NCBI GenBank assembly: GCA_020847095.1
Contig: JADLCR010000088.1
Location: forward strand, 46,871 to 110,870
Source: Oligoflexia bacterium
GTDB lineage: Bacteria; Bdellovibrionota; Bdellovibrionia; JABDDW01
DNA length: 64,000 nt
Reading direction: 5' to 3'
In this document: positions 9,785 through 46,693 of the stretch, one piece after another
Numbering within the stretch: the first letter of the stretch is position 1
Layout: every line of letters starts with the position of its first letter
Translations under genes and position numbers: made by a program
The notes under the pieces: generated by a model
Told to the model about the DNA's origin: nothing
Databases searched by the model: none
The model's input: the letters and a program-made list of their open reading frames with translations, nothing else

Positions 9785-11500
9785 TTAGATGCTCAAGCTC
9801 TTGAGTTCACCCTTTTTAAAAGCAATGTAACCATCAAAAATCAGCTTACAAACTGTGACAGCGGTAAAGAGCGTTGTCACAATGCCGATGAGCAGGGTGA
9901 CAGCAAATCCCTTAATCGGACCTGTTCCAAACTGAAGCAAAATGATCGCGACAATGCCGTGGGTGATATTCGCGTCAAAAATACTGCTAAACGCTTTGTC
10001 AAATCCCGCCTCAATCGCGCGAGCCGGGCTCTTACCTTCTTGCAGCTCATCTCGAATTCGCTCAAAGATGATGACGTTACTATCAACAGCCATTCCAATT
10101 GTAAGCGCTAGGCCCGCAATTCCTGGCAATGTCAGTGTCGCATCTAGGCTCACAAGCGCTGCGAACGCAAAAAGTCCGTTGAGCATCAATGATAGAACGG
10201 CCACCAAACCACTGGCTCGATAGTAAAAGGACATAAAAATAAATATTAAGGCACAGCCCACAATTCCCGCTGTTAGCCCTTGGCGAATACTATCTTGCCC
10301 CAATGAGGGTCCGATAACCCGCTGCTCGACTAAATCGAGCTGAGCCGGCAAAGCCCCTGCTCGAAGAACAATGCTCAAATCCTTTGCTTCTTTCATCAAC
10401 TCTTCATGATTGCCTTGACCCAATGTAATCTGCCCATTGGTAGAAATTTCGCTTTGAATGACAGGAGCCGAATAGACGACATTATCCAAAACAATAGCTA
10501 ATCGCTTTTGCTTGTTTTCTCCCGTAACCTTTTTCATTGCCGCTGCACCGGCCGGATTCATTTGAAACTCGACAATGGGGCGACCGTAATCTTGATCGAT
10601 ATTCATACGAGCGTCTTGCAGATCGTTTCCAGTCACGTCGACTTTCTTGAAAAGCAAATACGGAACCCAGGTGGCAGGAACATTTGGGCCGGAGCCGCGA
10701 GAGGTTTTTTCAAACACAATCTCTGAGTCCTCAGGAATTTTTCCTTTTGCGAACTCATTAATTTTCTCGACGTACTCTGAAAACTTTTGTCCCTCTTTGT
10801 ATTGGACGCCATGATCTTTTTCAATTGAAGCCACTAACGCGGCGATTTGTCCGCCTTGCATGGCCGAATCATTGACGATTTTAAATTCTAACTTAGCCGT
10901 TCGACCAATAAGTTGTTTAGCACGCTCAATTTCTCGCACTCCCGGGAGCTCAACGACAACCCGCTTGCTCCCTTGGCTCGAAATCCCCGGCTCAGTCACA
11001 CCGAAAGTATCAATACGATTTCTGATAACTTCGATAGATTGTCGAACCGCATTGTCACGAATATCATTTCGATTGGTGAGGGTCAGTGCCAATTCCAACT
11101 CTCCGGCCTTCTCACCTAAGATGATCATATTCGGATAATAGTCTTTCAGTAGCGTCTTAATTTCACCCGTTTGCGCTGCTTCAAAAGTGAGAAACCCGCG
11201 TGGGTCATCTTCCTCGGAATAGGTCCCTAATCTCCATTGGCTCGGGAGTGCTTTACTTGTGGAAAGCACCTTAAGGGACTCTAGTTGGCGCTCCATGTTT
11301 TCCTTAAAGAGCTTTTTGATGTCAATTTCGAACACCATGTAGAGCCCACCTTGAAGATCGAGCCCTAAATTGACCTTCTTCTTGACGGGAAATTTTGATG
11401 TATCTGGATTCAAATTACTCAAAGTAGGATAAACGTACAAAACGCTTATCGTCGTGATGATCATCAAGATCCAAAACTTAGCCCACCAGATTCGCTTCAT
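9785..11500 (-). CDS. secD: protein translocase subunit SecD
   Basis: Length 571 aa. N-terminal TM, large periplasmic domain and C-terminal TM bundle, in the conserved yajC-secD-secF order. Confidence 0.9.
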   Translation of the reverse strand: MKRIWWAKFWILMIITTISVLYVYPTLSNLNPDTSKFPVKKKVNLGLDLQGGLYMVFEIDIKKLFKENMERQLESLKVLSTSKALPSQWRLGTYSEEDDPRGFLTFEAAQTGEIKTLLKDYYPNMIILGEKAGELELALTLTNRNDIRDNAVRQSIEVIRNRIDTFGVTEPGISSQGSKRVVVELPGVREIERAKQLIGRTAKLEFKIVNDSAMQGGQIAALVASIEKDHGVQYKEGQKFSEYVEKINEFAKGKIPEDSEIVFEKTSRGSGPNVPATWVPYLLFKKVDVTGNDLQDARMNIDQDYGRPIVEFQMNPAGAAAMKKVTGENKQKRLAIVLDNVVYSAPVIQSEISTNGQITLGQGNHEELMKEAKDLSIVLRAGALPAQLDLVEQRVIGPSLGQDSIRQGLTAGIVGCALIFIFMSFYYRASGLVAVLSLMLNGLFAFAALVSLDATLTLPGIAGLALTIGMAVDSNVIIFERIRDELQEGKSPARAIEAGFDKAFSSIFDANITHGIVAIILLQFGTGPIKGFAVTLLIGIVTTLFTAVTVCKLIFDGYIAFKKGELKSLSI

Positions 11501-11847
11501 GGATTCCCCTCTTTAGCAAGTCCCGCAATTTGTGATTTTAAAATTCGAATTCTAACATTGTCAGCGATTTGCAGTGTAACAACACGATCGGTTGTTCCTG
11601 CAACTTCACCCAAAATCCCGCCTGAAGTGATTACTTGATCACCGCGCTTGATCCCCTCTAGGAGCTTTTGATGTTCTTTTTGCTTCTTGCCCTGAGGCCG
11701 AATAATCAAGAAGTAGAAAATCACAAACATCGCGGCGATCGGAAATACCATCTCCAAGACGGACGGTTGAGCCGGGGTCACGGCGCCTTGTTGTGCCCAT
11801 GCAATTGAAATCATTTTGAAACTCCTCCAAAGCTTCGAAAGTCCCAT
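11497..11847 (-). CDS. yajC: preprotein translocase subunit YajC
   Basis: Small single-TM protein. Its stop overlaps the secD start, and it follows tgt as in the canonical operon. Confidence 0.85.
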   Translation of the reverse strand: MGLSKLWRSFKMISIAWAQQGAVTPAQPSVLEMVFPIAAMFVIFYFLIIRPQGKKQKEHQKLLEGIKRGDQVITSGGILGEVAGTTDRVVTLQIADNVRIRILKSQIAGLAKEGNP

Positions 11848-11874
11848 TAAGCGGTTAAAGAATCAAGCTTGTTG

Positions 11875-14061
<2,187 letters not shown>

Positions 14062-25160: not shown

Positions 25161-27338
25161 TTAGTTGAGAGTGAACACTAAGGCATAGGGTTGGGCATTT
25201 GTATCAGGTCGCCCAACGGGAACGTTTTGCGCCGAGATTCGAACAGTGTACTCGCCATCATGGGGAGCCACCATTTCAATCATTTCCGTATTGTTCACCT
25301 TGTCTGGTGCCTTCAAGCGATTCGGGAAGAAAGTGTCTCCCCCTTGATCAACAACACTTAAATCTAAATCGTTAACCAAAGCTTGAGCCGCTCCAGCAGA
25401 TCCGGGAGCATCGGTGTACACCAAAGTCACTTGGATCTTTTGGCCCTGCTTTGCATAAAACTGGTAGTTTCTCATTCCACCGGTTGCAAGACCTTCGCGC
25501 TCATCGATCAAGTTCTCTCTCTTGAGAGTGACCATTTTTTCCAAATCGACGCGACCGAAACCTTCATTGGTATTTGGACGCGGGGTTTGGAACTCTTGCC
25601 CTTTTCCAAAACCAAATTGGCCCGGGAAAAGATCAAATGCCGTATGCAGCATCGACGCCTTTAAAAGCGCCGCACTGGGGCGGGTCACACCAATGGATTG
25701 GAGGTACTCGCGCGATACAGCAGCGGCTCCAGAAGTCAACGGCGTTGCCATCGAAGTTCCACCGGCATAGGCATAGTGTTGATTGTAAGCACCCCAAAGT
25801 TTGCTGGAGCGCTTATGCTGCGACTGGAGAGAAACGATGTTCGTTCCTGGCGCCACGATTTCTGGCTTGATTCGTCCATCGCGCGTCGGACCTACGCTGC
25901 TAAATGCTGCCATCCCGCCAGGATTATCAGACAGACGACTTGAAGCCAGTGGTTCAACGCCCCACTTTCGTGCCCCGTCACGTAGTCCCTTCATTTGTTC
26001 TTGGATTCCACCAAAATTTGCCAAGTTTTTGCTCGCTCCTACAGTCAGAACATTCTTGGCGGTTCCGGGGCTGCTCACGCTACCCGGATCGATATGCCCG
26101 TCGCGATCAAGATCTTGTCCGCTATTTCCCGCAGCAAAAACGATTAGCAAATCTGGATTGTTCCAGGCCACATCGTCAACTTTTGATGACATCATGTCGT
26201 AGCTTCCAAGGTCTCGCGCCGCACCCCAGCTATTGGAGTGAACTGTTGCGCCTTTTTCGACATGGGCTTTGACGAAGAGCTTATTGAAATCCGGTGTAAT
26301 AAAAATATTGTTCAGTAGAGCATTCCATAAATGTTCGAACACGAGTTTAGCACCGTAAGCGCCACCCCGGATGCGCCCTCCTGAAAGTGCCCCGTTTCCG
26401 ACAACAGACCCCGAGACGTGGGTTCCGTGCCCTTGAGGATCCGACCAGCGTGGCAAATTCCATTTTTGGAAGGCCGTAATTCCAAAAAACCCTAATGCGT
26501 AAACAGAATCCAACTGCCCTTGAAAATCTTTAAGAAGCAATTGAGAATTCCCAACGTCAAGACCGGTGTCGGCCACGGCAACTTTTTGTCCTTGCCCACT
26601 GAGACCTCGCGCGTATGCCGCATCGAAGTTCATAAGCTTGGTTCCGGACTCATAACCCGTGAGATCCGAATAATCACCCTTAGGTTGCGCACCCTTAGAA
26701 GGCTTCTTGCCTTGAGTGTCGTCATTTTCGAACAAAAAGTTTGTCAGTCGCGGAGCGGGCTCAACAAACTCCACACCTTCTAGATTGGCAATAGCCTTAG
26801 CCGCCGATCCATTGGCGTCGACAAGAAACATTTCGGGAGCTACTTTTTCGATTCTTAGATCCAGAGCAAAAAGTTTGGCTGCCGAATATAACGAATCAAT
26901 GGGCGCATCTTTAAATGCCCGTACCAAAACCGCTTGGCGCTGGGAATTGTATTTAAAGTGCTCCGACAATCGGAGTCGCACCGAATATGGCACCACGGCG
27001 CGCACGTTAGCCTGCGCATTGAGAGCAGCCCATTGATAAGTCTCGGTGACCCGAACAATAAAAGCGTCATCGGGAACATAGGTATGAAACTTAATTCCTG
27101 CGCGCTCGAGTCTTTGCTTCTGAACGGGCCGAACCGGTTCAGTAAATTGAACTATATAATACTGTCGCCCTGCGGTTGGCGCGAAACGGGTCCCCCATGC
27201 TTCGGTTCCACTAAGTTTCTGATTGATGGATTGATCATTGAGACGAAGTGTTTCAGTTTTGAACTTGATGACCTCGCCTGCTGACAGCGTAGAGGCCGTT
27301 AAAAGCACCCCCAGAAAAGCAAAATCCCTTGCCCTCAT
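25161..27338 (-). CDS. secreted subtilisin-like serine protease (peptidase S8)
   Basis: Catalytic triad motifs VAVADTGLD, HGTHVSGS and GTSMATP. Signal peptide after the internal Met MRARDFAFLGVLL. The ORF track extends to 27416. Confidence 0.88.
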   Translation of the reverse strand: MRARDFAFLGVLLTASTLSAGEVIKFKTETLRLNDQSINQKLSGTEAWGTRFAPTAGRQYYIVQFTEPVRPVQKQRLERAGIKFHTYVPDDAFIVRVTETYQWAALNAQANVRAVVPYSVRLRLSEHFKYNSQRQAVLVRAFKDAPIDSLYSAAKLFALDLRIEKVAPEMFLVDANGSAAKAIANLEGVEFVEPAPRLTNFLFENDDTQGKKPSKGAQPKGDYSDLTGYESGTKLMNFDAAYARGLSGQGQKVAVADTGLDVGNSQLLLKDFQGQLDSVYALGFFGITAFQKWNLPRWSDPQGHGTHVSGSVVGNGALSGGRIRGGAYGAKLVFEHLWNALLNNIFITPDFNKLFVKAHVEKGATVHSNSWGAARDLGSYDMMSSKVDDVAWNNPDLLIVFAAGNSGQDLDRDGHIDPGSVSSPGTAKNVLTVGASKNLANFGGIQEQMKGLRDGARKWGVEPLASSRLSDNPGGMAAFSSVGPTRDGRIKPEIVAPGTNIVSLQSQHKRSSKLWGAYNQHYAYAGGTSMATPLTSGAAAVSREYLQSIGVTRPSAALLKASMLHTAFDLFPGQFGFGKGQEFQTPRPNTNEGFGRVDLEKMVTLKRENLIDEREGLATGGMRNYQFYAKQGQKIQVTLVYTDAPGSAGAAQALVNDLDLSVVDQGGDTFFPNRLKAPDKVNNTEMIEMVAPHDGEYTVRISAQNVPVGRPDTNAQPYALVFTLN

Positions 27339-40981: not shown

Positions 40982-40992
40982 TCAAACGAAAC

Positions 40993-41020
40993 ACAACGGC
41001 CCCCGAGCAGGGGCCGTTGT
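40993..41020. terminator. bidirectional terminator hairpin between convergent genes
   Basis: acaacggcccc-gagca-ggggccgttgt. Confidence 0.45.
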
Positions 41021-41042
41021 GAAATACAATTCAACTTTTTAA

Positions 41043-42338
41043 TTAATGAGTACGGTCAGCTAAAAATTTGGCCTTCTTAACCGCTTCGCCAACATTCAAG
41101 AAACCGCCGCTTGATACTTTGTCGGTAAGAAAAGTCTTCTTTGTGCTCGTTTCTAGTAAAATAGCTTTAACTTCGTTCCATTTTAGATTGGGGTTAGCTG
41201 CTAACATGAGCGCAGCCGCACCGGCGACGTGCGGTGACGCCATCGAGGTTCCACTTAAATACTGAAACCACCCCTTACTCACAGTGTTTCTTAATGGGGT
41301 ATCTAAAGAATAAATGGTATCGCCAGGGGCCACAATATCGACGCTCACTTTGCCGTAGTTAGAAAAGCCCGCGAGCTCCCCTTTATCATTGTAGCTTGCT
41401 GCAACTGAAACAATGTTATCAAGATCATAAGCCGCCGGGTACATAGGAGTCTTGTCGGCGTTGCTACTATCATTGCCAGCAGCCGCTACAAATAGCATTC
41501 CTTTGTCCATGGCGTACTTGATCGCATCATAAAGGGCTGGGTTTGCTTCGTCACTTCCCCAACTGCAATTAATGACTCTTGCACCATTATCCGCAGCGTA
41601 CACGATTGTTTTAATTGCGGCTTCGTCAGTTCCAGAACCATCGGCACCTAGAAATTTAACTGTCATAATGCTTGTGTACCAATTGACACCAGATATTCCG
41701 GACTTGTTCCCACCAACCGCTCCAATGGTGCCCGCTACGTGGGTGCCATGATAATGATTTTCATTGGGCGACGGTGAATTGGTCTCAAAGTTATAACCAT
41801 TCACGTCATCAATGTACCCATTGCCATCGTCATCAATTTTGTTTTTAGATTTATCTTTTCCGTTGGCGTCTTTTCCGAATTCTCCCGGGTTGACCCAAAT
41901 ATTATCGCCAATATCAAAATGCTTCATGAAGGTTCCGGTGTCGGATACGGCCACAACGATCTTTCGATCGCCTTGAGTGATTTTCCACGCCTCAAAAGTG
42001 TTTGAGGCCTTTATCCCCCAAGTGCCTCCGGCCTCTGATTCCATTTGGGAGAGCGTAGGAACGGAGTCGTTCGAAACCAAACGAACTCGTCCATTTCTTG
42101 CGATATACAGAATTTCTCCGGCAGATTTTTCGCCGATTCGGCTCACCGGAAGGCCTTGCCCCTTAATCACCGCCATATTTAGCTGAGGAATAAATGTTTT
42201 GACCGACTGAAATCCATCGAGCTCTTTTAGAGCTTTAATTCCTTTGGCCGTATCTCCACGAAACCGGACAATATATTCCGCGGCACTTCCAACATTGCTG
42301 ATGAGAATTAAAATTAACCCCACAAGACCTGCTCGCAT
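41043..42338 (-). CDS. secreted subtilisin-like serine protease (peptidase S8)
   Basis: VAVSDTGT, HGTHVAGT and GTSMASPHVAG. Signal peptide from the internal Met MRAGLVGLILIL. The ORF track extends to 42407. Confidence 0.88.
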   Translation of the reverse strand: MRAGLVGLILILISNVGSAAEYIVRFRGDTAKGIKALKELDGFQSVKTFIPQLNMAVIKGQGLPVSRIGEKSAGEILYIARNGRVRLVSNDSVPTLSQMESEAGGTWGIKASNTFEAWKITQGDRKIVVAVSDTGTFMKHFDIGDNIWVNPGEFGKDANGKDKSKNKIDDDGNGYIDDVNGYNFETNSPSPNENHYHGTHVAGTIGAVGGNKSGISGVNWYTSIMTVKFLGADGSGTDEAAIKTIVYAADNGARVINCSWGSDEANPALYDAIKYAMDKGMLFVAAAGNDSSNADKTPMYPAAYDLDNIVSVAASYNDKGELAGFSNYGKVSVDIVAPGDTIYSLDTPLRNTVSKGWFQYLSGTSMASPHVAGAAALMLAANPNLKWNEVKAILLETSTKKTFLTDKVSSGGFLNVGEAVKKAKFLADRTH

Positions 42339-42446: not shown

Positions 42447-43166
42447 TTAAGGTCGGTCAGTAACGATCGCGGCTTCACCATCTTCATTCAGAAGCCTCTG
42501 GAGATAACGATAGGGAAGCCATGACTGCGGATAGTTAGTTCCCCAACTATTGATGATCTTAACGGCTTGTCTCTCGTCGCTTGCGCCGATGATACAAACG
42601 CAATGTCCTCGATTTCGCTCGTGCCGACCGAGTCCATTTTTTGCGATCCAATAATCTCCTGATATGAGCTCGGGCGAATCCATGTTGTTATACCATTTAA
42701 CGCCAATTGTGACGGGCGTTCCTTTTGAAATGGCGGTGCGAATCTGATCAACATTCTCAGCCCACCTGTTTTCAAGGATCCCTTCCTTTTTATTGGGTCG
42801 GTAGCGCCGTTGGCCCACCACTCGCACATGTCCAAGGCCTCTGAGAATGTCCATGGCCGCCATAACGGTTGTGCCATTTTGATCACCAGGGTTTGTGTCA
42901 GGCCAAATATCCACCTCTTTTGCCATATTCCAAAGCCAACGGGCATCATAATAACGCCGATTCAGAATAGACATCATCCAAGATGAGCCAAAGCCAACGC
43001 AGGCGCCTTCAGAACCTTGATCATATTTCGAAATATAATTTTTGTTAACTTTCAGAACTTTTTCAACGCGGGTCGCGGTCCTTGGAACCAAAGCTGAATA
43101 AGCCCAAAGTCGCTGGTGATCCGTATTATAAGGCGGCTTCCAACCCAGAAGTTTCTTCTTTCCCAT
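42447..43166 (-). CDS. papain-like cysteine peptidase (C1-like), no signal peptide or prodomain
   Basis: Gln six residues before the Cys in QGSEGACVGFGSSW. HCVCIIG and NSWG with papain-like spacing: Cys to His about 135 residues, His to Asn 17. N-terminus MGKKKLLGWKPPY. Confidence 0.6.
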   Translation of the reverse strand: MGKKKLLGWKPPYNTDHQRLWAYSALVPRTATRVEKVLKVNKNYISKYDQGSEGACVGFGSSWMMSILNRRYYDARWLWNMAKEVDIWPDTNPGDQNGTTVMAAMDILRGLGHVRVVGQRRYRPNKKEGILENRWAENVDQIRTAISKGTPVTIGVKWYNNMDSPELISGDYWIAKNGLGRHERNRGHCVCIIGASDERQAVKIINSWGTNYPQSWLPYRYLQRLLNEDGEAAIVTDRP

Positions 43167-43171
43167 CTGCG

Positions 43172-43978
43172 CTAGCCCACTTTCCTAATAGAAATCCGAT
43201 TCTTTAACATGGGGTTGAGAAATCTCTCTTTATCTTGAAGTACTTTGATAGCCTCAGGCTCCACTATCATTCCTGTGGCTTCACTCAGTTTGTCGCTGAG
43301 CGCTTTTGGATCTTTATCTACAAATTCCTCAACATCTTTAATTCCAGCTTTATCAAATAGTTTGCTGATCTCGCGTGGAAGCACTTTCGAAGCCACAAGT
43401 CCGGACTTGCCAATTTTAGTTTTCCAATCCACCTGGCCGTTAACCTTTTTTAACGCCTCTAAACCACCGGCTTTATTTGTAACCCGTTGAAAATCATCGA
43501 CTGAGAAAATTCGATTCTTTTTAAGGGTCTCTATTGTTTCCGCAGGTAAATCCAGTGACTCGATAGGTTCGTGCTTTTCAAGCATCAAAGGCACTTGTGC
43601 ACCAACAACAGGTCTCACTTTCAATCTGAATTGGCCAACACCAGGGCCCGCCTTTTCGCTATCAGCAACGCTAGCAACAATTTGCCCCAAATTGTCTACA
43701 CGTGCCTTGATTGGCAGAACAATGTCGATTTCATCCACCAAAAAAGCGGCGGTTCCGTTTTGATATTTTGTCAGTTCATTTTGCACGCTTGAGAGAGATA
43801 GGGCAATGCTTTCTCCTAGTTCGTGCAACACAACTTCTCCAGTCGTGATGTTTGGACCGCCGGAGTTACCAGAATTTGGGGGAGTGGTAGGGTCCCCGAA
43901 TCGTATCAATGACTGGTTCTTTGCTCGACGTTTGATTGCTTTCTTAGCTATTTTCTTCCGTGATTTCATCTGTCCCAC
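43172..43978 (-). CDS. hypothetical protein with poly-basic N-terminus and RFGDP motif
   Basis: MGQMKSRKKIAKKAIKRRAKNQSLIRFGDP. No signal peptide. Shares its N-terminal architecture with the 45521..46693 product. Confidence 0.5.
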   Translation of the reverse strand: MGQMKSRKKIAKKAIKRRAKNQSLIRFGDPTTPPNSGNSGGPNITTGEVVLHELGESIALSLSSVQNELTKYQNGTAAFLVDEIDIVLPIKARVDNLGQIVASVADSEKAGPGVGQFRLKVRPVVGAQVPLMLEKHEPIESLDLPAETIETLKKNRIFSVDDFQRVTNKAGGLEALKKVNGQVDWKTKIGKSGLVASKVLPREISKLFDKAGIKDVEEFVDKDPKALSDKLSEATGMIVEPEAIKVLQDKERFLNPMLKNRISIRKVG

Positions 43979-44279
43979 TCTCTGTCATCGTCTCTACGGG
44001 CCTTTCCAACCGCCTAACCCCGATTCCAATTCCGGCCGTCATGCGCTCGGATGGTATAAGATCAAGCGTCGATGATACTCCCGCTGAATTTTTTGCAACA
44101 GTAATTGCTGAGATATTGAATCCTAGTTGAATTCGATTCCATACGAAATGACGAGTGGGTGTTCCCACTTGATCTGAAATGAGTTTTGATCTCTCGGCAG
44201 ATTGATCTAACTGGTACTGTGAATCAACGATATGAGCTGCGATTGCGCCCAAAACATTTTGTGCCTTTCGCGACATCAC
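43944..44279 (-). CDS. hypothetical small protein (uncertain)
   Basis: 111-aa ORF. Its start overlaps the upstream gene stop (ATGA) and its end overlaps the next gene start by 35 nt. Confidence 0.35.
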   Translation of the reverse strand: MMSRKAQNVLGAIAAHIVDSQYQLDQSAERSKLISDQVGTPTRHFVWNRIQLGFNISAITVAKNSAGVSSTLDLIPSERMTAGIGIGVRRLERPVETMTESGTDEITEENS

Positions 44280-45502
44280 GCAACCTCGCGATCGGTTATG
44301 GGCTGAGGAATCTCAAGGTGATAGGCCGGATCCTCTTTTGGCTTCAAAAACTTACTGATTCGCTTTTCTTCGGCTACTACTCGCTCAAATGCCACACGAT
44401 CTTTTAGAGATTTCGGATCAATATCAATAACATTGAATTTTTTTGGATCTGCAAGATGTAAAGAAACAGTGCTAGGTCCGATTTCATTTATCTTTCGTTC
44501 CATTTGCTGAATGACTTCTGCCCGCTGTAGATCTCGCGCAATTCCCTTTTCGTAAACTTCTATGATTTTTCTCCCGGGTCCCTTATAGAGTCCTTTCATG
44601 TGTGCCACGCCATGCTTTGCGCAATTGTCATACATGATACGTGCCTGGTCTGCAGGCTTTCTTGCCGTGCTCGTGATGAATGCTCCATGCTCATTACAAG
44701 CTACTAGAATATCTTCCAGAACTCCGAGCGAATAGGTTGAAACCAACTCTTTCTTTGCATTTGGGCCAAACTGAATTTCAATTTTCGCACGTGATTTATT
44801 CAAAGCATTTCTGGTTGACGGCGGAATAGCATTGCCTTCGCGAATCTCTGGGCCGCTAGATTCGATGGGAGCATTGAGTAAATCCATGATGGTTACAGAG
44901 GGGGCAACTGAATGATGTTTGAGCACGTAAACGGCGTCATTAAAAAACTTAATAAACCGATCGCAATGCTCACCAGTGCCTATCGGGTACTGTTTCATTT
45001 TCCATCTGTTTCGAGCCCCGTTGTTGCGCTTAACGCCTCCTGCGTTGTAGGCAGCTGCAACGCGTGGAGGATCAAATTCAGTAACCCTTGACTGAAACGC
45101 GATATAAGCCGTCCCAGCTTTAATCGAATTTCTCGGCTCAAAAAGCCATTCACGACTCACGCTTTGTCTCAGGGTATCGCTCGCCGTTGAAATCAGAGTC
45201 TGCATCAGTCCTGCGCTGATCCGGCTCGGCGTTGCCGAGTCCGACCGAAAACCTGGCTCTTCCCGAACAGCCCTGGGGTTTCCGCTTGATTCCGTACAAA
45301 TGGTGGCGATGATAAGTTCACAGGGAACACGATACTGAGAAGCTATATCGTTGATTATTTCACAATAGGAGTCCCAAACACGTCCAACGGTTCGTGGAGC
45401 ACCTCGAGTGCGCTCCACGCCCGACCCTTCCACCTCGATACCGTCTCTCGTTAAACGCCATCGTGTGCCATTATTAAAATTGTGAAATCGTCCAAGCGAC
45501 AT
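44276..45502 (-). CDS. lytic transglycosylase (SLT domain) fused to an uncharacterized C-terminal domain
   Basis: Family-1 LT motifs TESSGNP, AGLMQ and AYNAG in the N-terminal half. About 200 aa of C-terminal sequence of unknown type. No signal peptide. Confidence 0.72.
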   Translation of the reverse strand: MSLGRFHNFNNGTRWRLTRDGIEVEGSGVERTRGAPRTVGRVWDSYCEIINDIASQYRVPCELIIATICTESSGNPRAVREEPGFRSDSATPSRISAGLMQTLISTASDTLRQSVSREWLFEPRNSIKAGTAYIAFQSRVTEFDPPRVAAAYNAGGVKRNNGARNRWKMKQYPIGTGEHCDRFIKFFNDAVYVLKHHSVAPSVTIMDLLNAPIESSGPEIREGNAIPPSTRNALNKSRAKIEIQFGPNAKKELVSTYSLGVLEDILVACNEHGAFITSTARKPADQARIMYDNCAKHGVAHMKGLYKGPGRKIIEVYEKGIARDLQRAEVIQQMERKINEIGPSTVSLHLADPKKFNVIDIDPKSLKDRVAFERVVAEEKRISKFLKPKEDPAYHLEIPQPITDREVA

Positions 45503-45520: not shown

Positions 45521-46693
45521 TTAAATGAGTACCGCAATTTTCTTCGCCAAAACGCCCCATGTCACGGTCACGTTTACCAATGTTGGCTTGTCCTTTTTTT
45601 CTTCGTATGAATATCCAGATCGGGTAATTCTAAAAATGATAGAACCATCATCATTGGCTGGCTGAGAATCGGCAACATAGGATTCTGTTGTGCCTTGCAA
45701 CTTCTTATAAGTAATTCTCATAAACGGATCATCCACATTGACTGTGATTTTTTGCCCTTTATTTCCAACATAGCCAACTTCGTTTCCACCGGTGCCGCCT
45801 TCGGTTCGAGGTGCCTTTTTCAAAACAGCCTCAAATTGATGGTAGCGCCCAATGATCACTGGTTCAGCTGGAACCGTAGGATCATTTGAGACTCCAGGTT
45901 TGGTGACGTCGCCTGATCCTGTCAAATCCACGGCCATCGTTGCGCCCGATTGGATAAGAAAGGGCTTTGGAGCTTCAATTTCTTTTCGCGGCTCAAGAGT
46001 AGCTTCCATATGCATATTGCCAACGGAAGATGTGACAGTGGTGCTCGAATCAGTTGAGCTGCTGTAATTGCTATTATTGTACCCAAGGCTTCCGCTGATG
46101 CTACCGCCGGTCATTCCATAACTGCCATTCACACCAACTTTGAAAGACTCAGATCGGCCTTGGATTTTAAATCCAGTATCAGCATCAAAAGATGCCACTT
46201 TCATATCGGCCTGAAGATGAACTCGGCTCCATTGATAAGAAACTGGTGGTAAAAAGCTAATGACGGGAATCTGACTCTTGATCACTGTTGGAGTGTCGTA
46301 AGTCCCGTCGTCTTTAACTTTTTGCTCTATAATTGTTGGAACTTCTATGTTTGTTTTCGAGAGCTCTTTTGCAGTTTCTACCATGTTTTTATCAAGTGCT
46401 TCTTGAGCATCGGCCACGGCATGACCAATTTTTCCGACGAATTCTCCAAATGCAGGAGTCACATTTGATAACCCAGCAGCCGTGCGCTTAGCCGCATCGG
46501 CGGCCCTAGGGTCACCAAATCTAAGTGCTCCTTTGTTTTTGGCACGAGCTTTTGCTTGTCGCTTCAAGTCTTCTACGATCGCCAAAGCTTCTTTTGTGTC
46601 CTTTGGGAGAGCTTTTAAAAGCTTCGCCGTTTCCTTTTTCACAAATGATGCACCGACAAAATTTTTCTTAAGCTTTCTTGCTGGTTTTCCCAT
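45521..46693 (-). CDS. hypothetical protein with poly-basic N-terminus, RFGDP motif and Gly/Ser-rich beta-rich body
   Basis: MGKPARKLKKNF...KGALRFGDP. Ser/Thr/Gly-rich central segment. No signal peptide. First gene of the five-gene module. Confidence 0.55.
   Translation of the reverse strand: MGKPARKLKKNFVGASFVKKETAKLLKALPKDTKEALAIVEDLKRQAKARAKNKGALRFGDPRAADAAKRTAAGLSNVTPAFGEFVGKIGHAVADAQEALDKNMVETAKELSKTNIEVPTIIEQKVKDDGTYDTPTVIKSQIPVISFLPPVSYQWSRVHLQADMKVASFDADTGFKIQGRSESFKVGVNGSYGMTGGSISGSLGYNNSNYSSSTDSSTTVTSSVGNMHMEATLEPRKEIEAPKPFLIQSGATMAVDLTGSGDVTKPGVSNDPTVPAEPVIIGRYHQFEAVLKKAPRTEGGTGGNEVGYVGNKGQKITVNVDDPFMRITYKKLQGTTESYVADSQPANDDGSIIFRITRSGYSYEEKKDKPTLVNVTVTWGVLAKKIAVLI

What the first reader, a model, noticed from the sequence alone, without database searches (positions are those of the whole stretch)
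42447..43166. Minimal papain-like (C1A-type) cysteine peptidase lacking signal peptide and prodomain
The protein has Q-x5-C (QGSEGAC), H (HCVCIIG) and N (NSWG). Cys to His is about 135 residues and His to Asn is 17. This spacing closely matches papain's catalytic residues Gln19/Cys25/His159/Asn175.

Bacterial C1A peptidases are uncommon and usually secreted with a prodomain. This one is 239 aa and starts MGKKKLLGWKPPY, so it is cytosolic or delivered.
Basis: partly seen in the sequence, partly recalled or inferred. Interest (0 to 1): 0.55.

Follow-up and report, generated by a model that had tools for sequence, protein, structure and literature searches.

The report
Short xylellain-type papain-fold peptidase in operon
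The gene really does encode a small cytoplasmic papain-type cysteine protease, of a short bacterial kind that is already known. The more interesting point is that it fills a swappable "protease slot" in a rare, uncharacterised five-gene operon that also encodes a cell-wall-cutting enzyme.

Summary
The ORF is real: 239 aa on the MINUS strand, 43166→42447. Its Gln50/Cys56/His188/Asn206/Trp208 are invariant in 30/30 homologues.

- Short, signal-peptide-less, single-domain xylellain-type C1A peptidases are widespread in bacteria and phages (Kordis & Turk 2023).
- The protein is not prodomain-free. It has a conserved N-terminal extension of about 45 residues that superposes on zymogen pro-regions.

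The gene is the fifth in a tightly coupled operon:
- A: unknown protein with a charge-poor β-hairpin and an Ig-like domain
- B: SLT lytic transglycosylase
- C: small paralogue of A, about 100 aa
- D: protein with a variable N-terminus
- E: this protease

The operon occurs sporadically in Oligoflexia, Spirochaetia, Bacteroidota and Actinomycetota. In other copies the protease slot holds a canonical PF00112 peptidase or a trypsin-like protease, often with extra S8 or M48 proteases.

I infer, but have not shown, that E processes or activates the operon's non-enzymatic proteins in a proteolysis-gated, envelope-breaching module. The enzyme itself is a new member of a known kind; the operon is uncharacterised.

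The parts
42447..43166 (-). Gene E: 239-aa short xylellain-type papain-fold cysteine peptidase. Gln50, Cys56, His188, Asn206 and Trp208 are the catalytic residues; residues 1 to about 45 form a conserved N-terminal extension.
42999..43019 (-). Codons for Gln50 to Cys56 (QGSEGAC): oxyanion-hole Gln and nucleophile Cys
   Evidence: Invariant in 30/30 homologues. Aligns with YDQGRIGSC of xylellain. Coordinates.
42543..42605 (-). Codons for His188 to Trp208 (GHCVCIIG...NSWG): general-base His, orienting Asn and shielding Trp
   Evidence: Invariant. Aligns with GGHAVLCVG...RNSWG of xylellain and NHGVLVVGYG...KNSWG of cathepsin S. Coordinates.
43172..43978 (-). Gene D: 268 aa. It has a basic leader, a conserved helix plus β unit (HELGESIA...VQNEL...FLVDEIDIVLP) and a C-terminal helix-hairpin-helix-like region. 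Its stop codon is 5 nt before the start of E.
   Evidence: Orthologues lie in the same position in all cassettes. Weak DUF4332 and RNA_pol_A_CTD hits.
43944..44279 (-). Gene C: 111-aa protein with an N-terminal helix (AQ..LD), β-strands and an acidic, Pro-containing tail. It is a paralogue of the N-core of A and overlaps both B and D.
   Evidence: hhalign of C against the A core: 92%, E 6.5e-7. The family has 105 representative clusters, none with a Pfam domain.
44276..45502 (-). Gene B: 408-aa protein with an N-terminal SLT lytic transglycosylase domain (catalytic Glu in CTESSG, residue 71), a conserved C-terminal domain of about 180 aa with no known match, and no signal peptide
   Evidence: PF01464 at E 1.1e-16. 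MltC structures. The C-terminal domain has no PDB or Pfam hit. Hydropathy.
45521..46693 (-). Gene A: 390-aa protein with a variable basic leader, a helix plus β-hairpin core (weak DUF2589 hit), a charge-poor Ser/Gly-rich amphipathic hairpin and a C-terminal Ig-like (Big_1) domain
   Evidence: Only 40 homologue clusters among 5.8 billion proteins. Alignment. AF2 model pLDDT 64. Pfam hits. Composition and period-2 alternation.
46508..46552 (-). Leader motif KARAKNKGALRFGDP in A
   Evidence: Shared with D. [LI]RFGDP occurs only twice in the six-frame window and zero times in about 3 Mb of other loci. The local alignment of the two leaders has z=8.1.
43889..43933 (-). Leader motif KRRAKNQSLIRFGDP in D
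41043..42338 (-). S8 subtilase with a signal peptide (MRAGLVGLILILISNVGSAAEY), 108 nt downstream of E; possibly a sixth gene of the operon
   Evidence: PF00082 at E 1.9e-61. Signal-peptide hydropathy. No terminator lies between E and S8. S8 genes also follow E in L014 and L189.
40992..41021 (-). Strong intrinsic-terminator-like hairpin (13-bp stem, 9 GC pairs) just after the S8 stop codon; the likely end of the transcription unit

Best explanation
Shown:
- The gene encodes a cytoplasmic, single-domain cysteine peptidase of the papain fold (clan CA, C1A-related, xylellain-type).
- It carries the full catalytic set: Gln50 (oxyanion hole), Cys56 (nucleophile), His188 (general base), Asn206 (orients the His) and Trp208 (shield).
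- It is the fifth gene of a tightly packed, probably translationally coupled operon A-B-C-D-E, possibly followed by a secreted S8 subtilase.
- This operon recurs, with all genes homologous, in unrelated phyla.
- The slot after D is filled interchangeably by this family, by a canonical PF00112 xylellain-like peptidase, or by a trypsin-like serine protease. Additional S8 or M48 proteases often follow.

Inferred:
- The conserved N-terminal segment of about 45 residues corresponds to xylellain's short pro-region and keeps the enzyme latent until it is removed or displaced.
- Once active, E acts as the operon's processing protease. It cleaves one or more of the non-enzymatic partners: A, C and D share a helix plus β unit, and A and D carry variable leaders that in this genome share a KxRAKNxxx[LI]RFGDP motif.
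- The processed partners then act on the membrane. A has a charge-poor, period-2 amphipathic hairpin like those of β-pore-formers.
- That gives the signal-peptide-less lytic transglycosylase B access to the murein.
- The result would be a proteolysis-gated module that breaches the envelope, for cell death/defence or for release of cell contents. The logic resembles the protease-effector pairs Pepco, EACC1 and gasdermin.

My confidence in each step: enzyme identity about 0.9; membership of the operon about 0.85; role as processing protease about 0.4; pore plus wall-lysis outcome about 0.3.
For: Enzyme:
- The five catalytic residues are invariant in 30/30 homologues.
- The AF2 model has pLDDT 93.4 and pTM 0.92.
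- The family profile hits 3OIS at E 1.1e-8 with the His/Asn/Trp block in register (its weak second stretch also pairs the Gln-Cys block); the cathepsin S hit is only E 0.36 but pairs the His and NSWG blocks.
- hhalign to a PF00112 protein gives 94.7%.

Cytoplasmic location: no signal peptide or transmembrane segment.

Pro-region: zymogens align over 195-214 residues and mature enzymes over 177-186.

Operon:
- Spacing is an 18-nt gap (A to B), overlaps at B/C and C/D, and a 5-nt gap (D to E).
- The only strong minus-strand terminator lies after the S8 gene.
- The same gene order occurs in Planotetraspora, Herbidospora, Streptomyces, and Bacteroidota, Spirochaetia and Actinomycetota MAGs.

Interchangeable protease:
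- L181 has a PF00112 peptidase (E 1.1e-15; 3OIS E 3.2e-38) immediately after D.
- L171 has a trypsin-like protease with a GDSG motif.
- S8 follows E in the window, L014 and L189. An X2+M48 pair occurs in L170 and L191.

Partner proteins:
- C and the N-core of A are paralogues (hhalign 92%, E 6.5e-7).
- A's central segment is 8% charged and 69% S/G/T/N/A/Y, with lag-2 hydropathy autocorrelation +0.38.
- A and D in the window share a leader motif (z=8.1).

Precedent: protease-gated pore-forming effectors paired with Ser or Cys proteases (bioRxiv 10.1101/2025.11.14.688446).
Against: - No cleavage, toxicity or activity data exist; every system-level step is inferred.
- No sequence link connects A, C or D to Pepco/Trypco, despite Pfam scans and two exhaustive searches.
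- The shared A/D leader motif is specific to this genome; other cassettes give z<=2.6.
- Some C orthologues have almost no C-terminal tail (RYEP, RYVP), which argues against Pepco-style tail removal.
- E has no sensor domain, so the trigger is unknown.
- E homologues of equal identity (52-57%) occur without the cassette, stand-alone (L002, L007) or in phage-like contigs (L006, L008). The A family has 40 clusters and the E family more than 524. E is therefore not dedicated to this cassette.
- Three cassettes show no adjacent protease: L172, L173 and L186.
- The model of A is poor in its central region (pLDDT below 50 for residues 150-232), and its fold search was uninformative.
Confidence: 0.55

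Rival explanations
1. E is itself a cell-envelope-degrading effector: an endolysin-like accessory peptidase that cuts peptidoglycan cross-links or envelope proteins. On this view it works in parallel with the SLT enzyme B and does not process A, C or D.
For: - One homologue (P0084) is fused to a PG_binding_1 domain and sits next to an Amidase_2 gene in a phage-like contig.
- Another lies about 1 kb from a GH25 muramidase.
- The family matches PHROG 16701 'peptidase', and 187 relatives occur in IMG/VR.
- E homologues keep 50-60% identity with or without the cassette, which suggests a universal substrate.
Against: - In sister cassettes the slot holds a trypsin-like protease or a canonical C1A peptidase. 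Neither class is known, to my knowledge, to cleave peptidoglycan.
- Small transmembrane ORFs are not enriched next to E in viral loci: 37/80 against 66% background.
- Phage contexts are heterogeneous.
- In the Pepco paper, PG-binding domains are listed among the sensor domains fused to the partner proteases, so the fusion does not discriminate between the two views.
Confidence: 0.22
2. E is a phage-derived gene (a phage maturation, host-takeover or anti-defence protease). It has been captured next to the cassette without any functional coupling to it.
For: - The family has many viral relatives and matches a PHROG family.
- Annotated 'peptidase' genes occur in Streptomyces phages Wakanda and Muntaha and in the jumbo phage XacN1.
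- The literature reports transfer of xylellain-type C1A peptidases to Caudoviricetes.
Against: - The window shows no prophage genes around the locus, and GC content is uniform.
- E sits in the same position, 5 nt after or overlapping D, in at least 9 cassettes from 4 phyla.
- Other proteases substitute for it in that exact slot.
- None of the 80 viral loci carries A-D.
Confidence: 0.1
3. E is a general intracellular protein-turnover peptidase, and its neighbourhood is incidental.
For: Stand-alone homologues lie among housekeeping genes in a Peptococcaceae MAG, in Amycolatopsis and elsewhere.
Against: - The distribution is sporadic and HGT-like: 209 hits in 185,579 species genomes, which does not suit a housekeeping enzyme.
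- Linkage to the cassette is tight and conserved: 7 of 11 sampled close homologues on long contigs are cassette-linked.
Confidence: 0.08
4. The protein is a catalytically dead papain-fold pseudo-enzyme, or the ORF is not expressed.
For: No experimental data exist. Pfam PF00112 does not detect the protein.
Against: - All five catalytic residues are invariant across 30 diverse homologues.
- The ORF is intact, and there are more than 500 homologue clusters of similar length.
- The predicted fold is highly confident.
Confidence: 0.03

Closest known systems
Xylellain (Xylella fastidiosa cysteine protease, PDB 3OIS): a short bacterial C1A peptidase
   Same: - Best sequence match: family profile E 1.1e-8.
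- Both are single-domain proteins without an I29 prodomain and with a short N-terminal region before the Gln-Cys motif.
- The YDQGxxGxC and GGHxV...NSWG blocks are shared.
- A true xylellain-like peptidase occupies the same operon slot in L181.
   Different: - Only about 21% identical.
- E falls below Pfam PF00112 thresholds.
- E has family-specific invariant motifs (TNPGDxxGT, NRWA, LGRRxPxDWxH).
- E is shorter: 239 aa against 291 aa.
- That xylellain's N-terminal region occupies the active-site cleft is my recollection of Leite et al. 2013 (cited as ref 70 in PMC10380794). I could not read that paper.
Papain and cathepsins B, L, S, H (eukaryotic C1A)
   Different: - No signal peptide and no I29 or cathepsin-B-type propeptide.
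- No conserved disulfide cysteines; only Cys56 is invariant and Cys191 nearly so.
- The motif around the nucleophile is EGACVGF, not CGSCWAF.
- The protein is cytoplasmic and bacterial.
Protease-effector defence modules (Pepco/Trypco, EACC1, bacterial gasdermin)
   Same: - A small non-enzymatic protein (C, 97-126 aa) with an N-terminal helix, β-strands and a charged, Pro-containing tail is encoded next to a Cys or Ser protease.
- The protease class is interchangeable.
- The neighbourhoods of some cassettes contain nSTAND, TIR and trypsin genes.
   Different: - No detectable homology to Trypco1/2.
- The protease has no fused sensor domain.
- The cassette has three paralogous partners plus a murein hydrolase, not one effector.
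- Some C orthologues lack a tail.
- No hit in PADLOC.
Phage-type lysis cassettes and holin/endolysin-dependent (type 10) secretion
   Same: A murein hydrolase without a signal peptide (B, SLT domain) is encoded alongside proteins that could permeabilise the membrane. Some homologues of E sit beside Amidase_2 or GH25 genes.
   Different: - None of A-E has a hydrophobic transmembrane segment.
- The window has no phage context.
- None of the 80 viral loci carries A-D.

Membership tests
Peptidase family C1, subfamily C1A (papain family) | Two-lobe papain fold (helical L domain plus β-barrel R domain) | tested here: met
   [not shown]
Peptidase family C1, subfamily C1A (papain family) | Catalytic Cys25/His159 dyad with Gln19, Asn175 and Trp177 equivalents in register | tested here: met
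   Gln50, Cys56, His188, Asn206 and Trp208 are invariant in 30/30 homologues. They align with the corresponding blocks of xylellain and cathepsin S and of a PF00112 protein.
Peptidase family C1, subfamily C1A (papain family) | Significant match to the Pfam PF00112 Peptidase_C1 model | tested here: not met
   No hit at E<=1 for this protein. 9/30 homologues hit below threshold, best E 0.0016. The link is recovered only by profile-PDB (E 1.1e-8), profile-profile (94.7%) and structure comparisons.
Peptidase family C1, subfamily C1A (papain family) | I29-type or cathepsin-B-type propeptide and a secretion signal (typical of eukaryotic members, not required of bacterial short forms) | tested here: not met
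   No Pfam hit. No hydrophobic N-terminus. Only a conserved extension of about 45 residues is present.
Peptidase family C1, subfamily C1A (papain family) | E-64-sensitive peptidase activity | not testable with these tools
   Needs purified protein.
Xylellain-type short bacterial C1A peptidases (Kordis & Turk 2023) | Single-domain short protein, no signal peptide when intracellular, sporadic HGT-like distribution that includes Caudoviricetes | tested here: met
   - 239 aa, single domain.
- No signal peptide.
- 50-60% identity across phyla.
- 209 hits in species genomes and 187 in IMG/VR.
- Description of the group in PMC10380794.
Xylellain-type short bacterial C1A peptidases (Kordis & Turk 2023) | Short N-terminal pro-region equivalent to that of xylellain | tested here: inconclusive
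   [not shown]
Pepco (Trypco1/2)-protease effector modules | Partner protein homologous to Trypco1 (PF19493) or Trypco2 (PF19631) | tested here: not met
   - No Trypco hit for C or D at E<=5.
- The C-family profile search of 5.8 billion proteins returned 10 proteins, none with a Pfam domain.
- Full HMMER over 1.84 billion representatives returned 105 hits; none of the 39 I scanned was Trypco.
Pepco (Trypco1/2)-protease effector modules | Small protein (about 100-120 aa: helix, β-strands, charged/Pro tail) encoded next to a Ser or Cys protease | tested here: met
   C is 97-126 aa with this layout. The adjacent protease is C1-like, PF00112 or trypsin-like. This is a resemblance of architecture, not evidence of homology.
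Pepco (Trypco1/2)-protease effector modules | Protease-dependent cleavage that unleashes membrane toxicity | not testable with these tools
   Needs co-expression and cleavage assays.
Phage-type holin/endolysin lysis cassette | Membrane holin with transmembrane segments next to a signal-less murein hydrolase | tested here: not met
   B is an SLT protein without a signal peptide. None of A-E has a 19-residue window above the 1.6 transmembrane cut-off except the C-terminal β-strand of A at 1.63. Small transmembrane ORFs are not enriched near E in viral loci.
NlpC/P60 or CHAP peptidoglycan peptidases | Match to NlpC/P60 or CHAP models or structures | tested here: not met
   [not shown]
Known anti-phage defence systems (PADLOC-DB v2) | Any cassette protein matching a defence-system model | tested here: not met
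   A to E have no meaningful hit (C only a chance-level PglX hit, E 0.039); only the neighbouring S8 matches a generic subtilase model.

The most novel reading that the evidence does not exclude
The A-(B)-C-D operon with its swappable protease slot may be a previously undescribed, horizontally mobile, proteolysis-gated system for breaching the cell envelope. The slot holds E-type C1-like, canonical C1A or trypsin-like proteases, with extra S8 or M48 proteases in some copies.

In this reading a minimal papain-type protease licenses a set of paralogous membrane-active proteins. These let a signal-less lytic transglycosylase reach the wall, for altruistic cell death/defence or for programmed release of cell contents. 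This would also give the first physiological role for bacterial short xylellain-type C1A peptidases.
Probability: 0.3. Interest if true: 0.7.

Novelty: new member of a known kind. Interest (0 to 1): 0.4.

Why it matters
Taken alone, the enzyme is an ordinary though divergent member of the short bacterial C1A peptidases. It mainly shows that Pfam PF00112 misses a sizeable subfamily: more than 500 clusters, including many phage copies.

The physiological roles of bacterial short C1A peptidases are almost unknown. According to Kordis & Turk 2023, functional data exist for only two species. The conserved linkage found here gives a concrete, testable hypothesis for what such peptidases do. The linkage is to a rare operon encoding a lytic transglycosylase and three paralogous proteins of unknown function, in which proteases of different catalytic classes replace one another.

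It also flags a candidate new protease-gated cell-envelope or conflict module that is absent from current defence-system catalogues.

Tried and rejected
1. Pfam, NCBIfam and PADLOC scans of E gave nothing significant; the only hit was a weak C39_2 match at E 0.021.
2. Prophage hypothesis for the window: the neighbours are metabolic or unknown genes with no phage hallmarks, and GC content is uniform.
3. Homology of C, D or A to Pepco/Trypco: not detected by Pfam scans, a profile search of 5.8 billion proteins, a full HMMER scan of 1.84 billion representatives, or Pfam scans of 39 distant hits. I keep it as an analogy only.
4. My guess that the C-terminal domain of B is a LAS/M15 metallopeptidase (S-x-H...D...YHLE): no Pfam or PDB support. 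It remains unassigned.
5. Fold search with the model of A returned only generic Ig-like matches at E>=0.018. The model is poor in its centre.
6. Holin-adjacency test in 80 viral loci: no enrichment (37/80 against 66% background). The method is crude because it relies on raw ORFs.
7. Inspection of the neighbours of close viral homologues: heterogeneous, with no consistent lysis cassette.
8. Conserved neighbours of the distant genomic relatives (Amycolatopsis and others): housekeeping synteny only, and ORF calls are noisy in high-GC DNA.
9. A shared A/D leader motif as a general cleavage site: significant only in this window (z=8.1) and not in other cassettes.
10. The primary xylellain structure paper is not in the library. 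The supplements of the Pepco preprint are not held.
11. A literature search for the cassette found no description of it.
Full report
**Observation.** The ORF at 42447..43166 is real but lies on the minus strand. It is 239 aa, starts with ATG and begins MGKKKLLGWKPPY. Cys to His is 132 residues and His to Asn is 18, close to papain's 134 and 16. The protein is identical to a hypothetical protein of an Oligoflexia MAG.

**Is it a papain-type peptidase?**

Direct family scans are nearly silent:
- Pfam gives no PF00112 hit at E<=1, only a weak C39_2 match at E 0.021.
- NCBIfam and PADLOC give nothing.
- PHROGs gives phrog_16701 'peptidase' at 3e-21.

Every more sensitive test agrees that it is:
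- A single-sequence search of the PDB finds xylellain (3OIS) at E 4.8e-6; the family profile improves this to 1.1e-8. The scoring stretch is GGH...NSWG (a weak second stretch pairs YDQGxxGxC); a cathepsin S hit (E 0.36) aligns at the same His and Asn-Ser-Trp blocks.
- In an alignment of 30 homologues (46-61% identity), Gln50, Cys56, His188, Asn206 and Trp208 are invariant.
- An AlphaFold2 model built on that alignment is very confident: pLDDT 93.4, pTM 0.92.
- Foldseek returns 79 PDB chains at E<=1e-3, nearly all C1A enzymes, led by xylellain at 1.3e-11.
- Nine of 30 family members give sub-threshold PF00112 hits.
- The family profile aligns at 94.7% probability with a bona fide PF00112 protein.

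The enzyme call is therefore secure. The protein belongs to a divergent subfamily that the Pfam model misses.

Second, the premise of rarity is outdated. Kordis & Turk 2023 (PMC10380794) report that short single-domain C1A peptidases are widespread in Bacteria and Archaea. They lack signal peptides when intracellular, spread by HGT, and xylellain-type enzymes were acquired by Caudoviricetes. Consistent with this, I found more than 524 homologue clusters, 209 relatives in species-representative genomes and 187 in IMG/VR. The absence of a signal peptide or transmembrane segment is confirmed.

**Genomic context.** E is the fifth gene of a compact minus-strand run:

| Gene | Coordinates | Size | Features |
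|---|---|---|---|
| A | 46693-45521 | 390 aa | no Pfam domain |
| B | 45502-44276 | 408 aa | SLT lytic transglycosylase, PF01464 at 1.1e-16, catalytic Glu in CTESSG, plus an unassigned C-terminal domain |
| C | 44279-43944 | 111 aa | small protein, no Pfam domain |
| D | 43978-43172 | 268 aa | basic leader, helix plus β unit, HhH-like C-terminus |
| E | 43166-42447 | 239 aa | this peptidase |

- Spacing is 18 nt, overlap, overlap and 5 nt.
- None of A to E has a signal peptide or transmembrane helix.
- An S8 subtilase with a signal peptide follows 108 nt downstream. The only strong minus-strand terminator lies after it, at 41021-40992.
- GC content is uniform, and the flanks are ordinary metabolic genes, not a prophage.

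**The cassette elsewhere.**

The same A-B-C-D-E order, with every protein homologous, occurs in two Planotetraspora species, Herbidospora, Streptomyces sp. PA03-1a, Bacteroidota, Spirochaetia and Actinomycetota MAGs, and metagenomic contigs.

Among the 80 best genomic relatives of E, only the six closest (over 50% identity) carry it. None of 80 viral loci does.

Of eleven close E homologues on long contigs:
- seven are cassette-linked (one of them decayed);
- two are stand-alone;
- two are in phage-like contigs beside Amidase_2 or GH25 genes, one of them fused to PG_binding_1.

The A family is very rare: 40 clusters among 5.8 billion proteins.

Starting from A instead of E shows that the core is A-(B)-C-D and that the next gene varies:
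- L181 has a canonical PF00112 peptidase (1.1e-15), close to xylellain (3.2e-38).
- L171 has a trypsin-like serine protease with a GDSG motif.
- L170 has two small genes plus an M48 membrane metalloprotease. The small-gene-plus-M48 pair recurs after E in Streptomyces L191.
- L172, L173 and L186 show no protease.
- S8 proteases follow E in the window, L014 and L189, where the 1200-aa gene overlaps E's stop codon. They lie nearby in L001 and L176.
- B is absent from L014, L180 and L186. L186 looks archaeal: it carries a proteasome-activating-nucleotidase-like AAA ATPase and has GC 0.38.

The replacement of one protease class by another in the same slot is the strongest evidence that proteolysis is integral to the system. 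It argues against E having been recruited for one specific chemistry such as peptidoglycan cleavage.

**The partner proteins.**
- C and the N-terminal core of A are paralogues (hhalign 92%, E 6.5e-7). They share a G..VA.AQ..LD helix and a PP..Y.WS.V.L strand. D's N-unit is only weakly similar (E 0.002, against 0.62 for a control).
- A has a variable basic leader of about 80 residues and a weak DUF2589-like region.
- A also has a conserved 49-residue segment that is 8% charged and 69% S/G/T/N/A/Y, with period-2 hydropathy alternation. AlphaFold predicts this segment as a long, low-confidence hairpin.
- A ends in a Big_1-type Ig-like domain, matched in 15/30 members.
- C proteins are 97-126 aa: a helix, β-strands and usually a short acidic, Pro-containing tail.
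- In this window only, the leaders of A and D share KxRAKNxxx[LI]RFGDP. The core [LI]RFGDP occurs twice in the six-frame window and zero times in about 3 Mb of other loci; the local alignment has z=8.1.

**Mechanistic reading.**

A recent preprint (10.1101/2025.11.14.688446) shows that small proteins encoded next to Ser or Cys proteases are latent pore-formers unleashed by site-specific cleavage. Its examples are Pepco (also called Trypco1/2) and EACC1. The present cassette has the same logic on paper.

My best explanation is that E is the processing protease of a proteolysis-gated envelope-breaching module. A, C and D would supply the membrane activity and B the wall hydrolysis.

I could not establish homology to Pepco/Trypco by any sequence method. 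Some C orthologues lack a tail, E has no sensor domain, and nothing has been tested experimentally. I put about 0.4 on the processing-protease role and about 0.3 on the pore-plus-lysis outcome, against about 0.9 on the identity of the enzyme.

The main rival is that E is itself an envelope or wall-degrading effector. The PG_binding_1 fusion and the Amidase_2 and GH25 neighbours in phage-like contigs support it. So does the equal conservation of E with and without the cassette. Against it stand the protease-class replacements, the clear C1A (not NlpC/P60 or CHAP) structural affinity, and the lack of a consistent lysis context in viral loci.

**Verdict.** The finding is confirmed as a real papain-fold cysteine peptidase, but of an already recognised kind: short, xylellain-type, cytoplasmic. 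It is a new, divergent member and not a new category. The uncharacterised operon with an interchangeable protease slot is the part worth following up. Interest is 0.4 overall. If the operon proves to be a protease-gated lysis or defence module (probability about 0.3), it would merit about 0.7.

Noticed in passing
window 46508-46552 (A) and 43889-43933 (D), minus strand: The N-terminal leaders of cassette proteins A and D share a 15-residue motif, KARAKNKGALRFGDP and KRRAKNQSLIRFGDP. [LI]RFGDP occurs only at these two places in the six-frame window and nowhere in about 3 Mb of other fetched loci. Other cassettes lack a shared leader motif. It could be a lineage-specific cleavage, docking or sorting signal.
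   Followed up: partly
window 44279-44815 (minus strand), C-terminal half of B; also L001:5045-5581, L004:5713-6258, L009:8407-8958, L013:7083-7625: The SLT protein carries a strongly conserved C-terminal domain of about 180 aa. Its invariant residues include STxRxPxxQAR, S-x-H-x-x-D and DP-x-YHLEIP. It has no Pfam or PDB sequence match. My guess of a LAS/M15-like metallopeptidase is unsupported, so it may be a new domain.
   Followed up: partly
L186 (fermentation metagenome contig, GC 0.38), about 9900-12300: A cassette copy with A, C and D but no SLT gene and no adjacent protease. It sits on a contig that looks archaeal, with a proteasome-activating-nucleotidase-like AAA ATPase upstream. Loss of the murein hydrolase would be expected in a host without murein, but L014 and L180 (bacterial or unknown) also lack B.
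   Followed up: partly
L170:13252-15720 and L191:8848-11951: A homologous gene pair recurs downstream of the cassette in two unrelated contigs, once after E and once without E. It consists of a 158-178 aa protein of unknown function and a polytopic M48 (HExxH) metalloprotease (blastp 1.4e-7 and 2e-16).
   Followed up: partly
window 41043-42338; L014:10849-12255; L189:8744-12346; also L001 and L176: S8 subtilases recur next to the cassette. They follow E in the window, L014 and L189; in L189 a 1200-aa S8 gene overlaps E's stop codon. The window's S8 has a signal peptide; the L014 S8 N-terminus reads as hydrophilic by eye (not scored). They could be a second protease tier or coincidence.
   Followed up: partly
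protein families: C (P0161-P0270) and A (P0121-P0160): The small C protein family has 105 clusters at 50% identity and the A family 40 clusters at 90% identity. If the difference is real, C-like proteins may also occur outside the full cassette. A few long multi-repeat proteins (such as P0255, with 4 stretches) scored against the C profile. The Pfam scan of the 39 distant hits returned only unrelated single-member families (PPR repeats, Ig-like domains), not attributed to individual proteins, so the long ones are probably false positives.
   Followed up: no
L190:1-4700: A decayed cassette in a Bacteroidota-like contig: a 42-residue remnant of A, an intact B and an intact E, but no C or D. Its flanks are syntenic with L004.
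   Followed up: partly
L001, L004, L013, L170, L172 and L191: N-terminal parts of D: D has a highly variable N-terminus. It ranges from about 20 residues (L009) to more than 450 residues made of repeated motifs of the type RVxGRVxxxxxxxGVxGLRVEAWD. By eye these resemble CarboxypepD_reg-like or transthyretin-like domains typical of surface proteins, yet there is no signal peptide.
   Followed up: no
L170 and L171 flanks: Two cassette copies lie among conflict-system genes: an nSTAND1/kinase/WD40 giant protein, TIR and ThsB_TIR proteins, Trypsin_2, a weak CdiI_5-like gene and IS elements. This hints at a defence-island setting. The window's own flanks are metabolic (HiPIP, a methyltransferase, a 5'-nucleotidase, a thioesterase).
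   Followed up: no
window 25740-26528, minus strand: A second, weak S8-like match (tblastn 1.2e-5, 25% identity to the cassette-adjacent S8) elsewhere in the window. I did not examine it.
   Followed up: no
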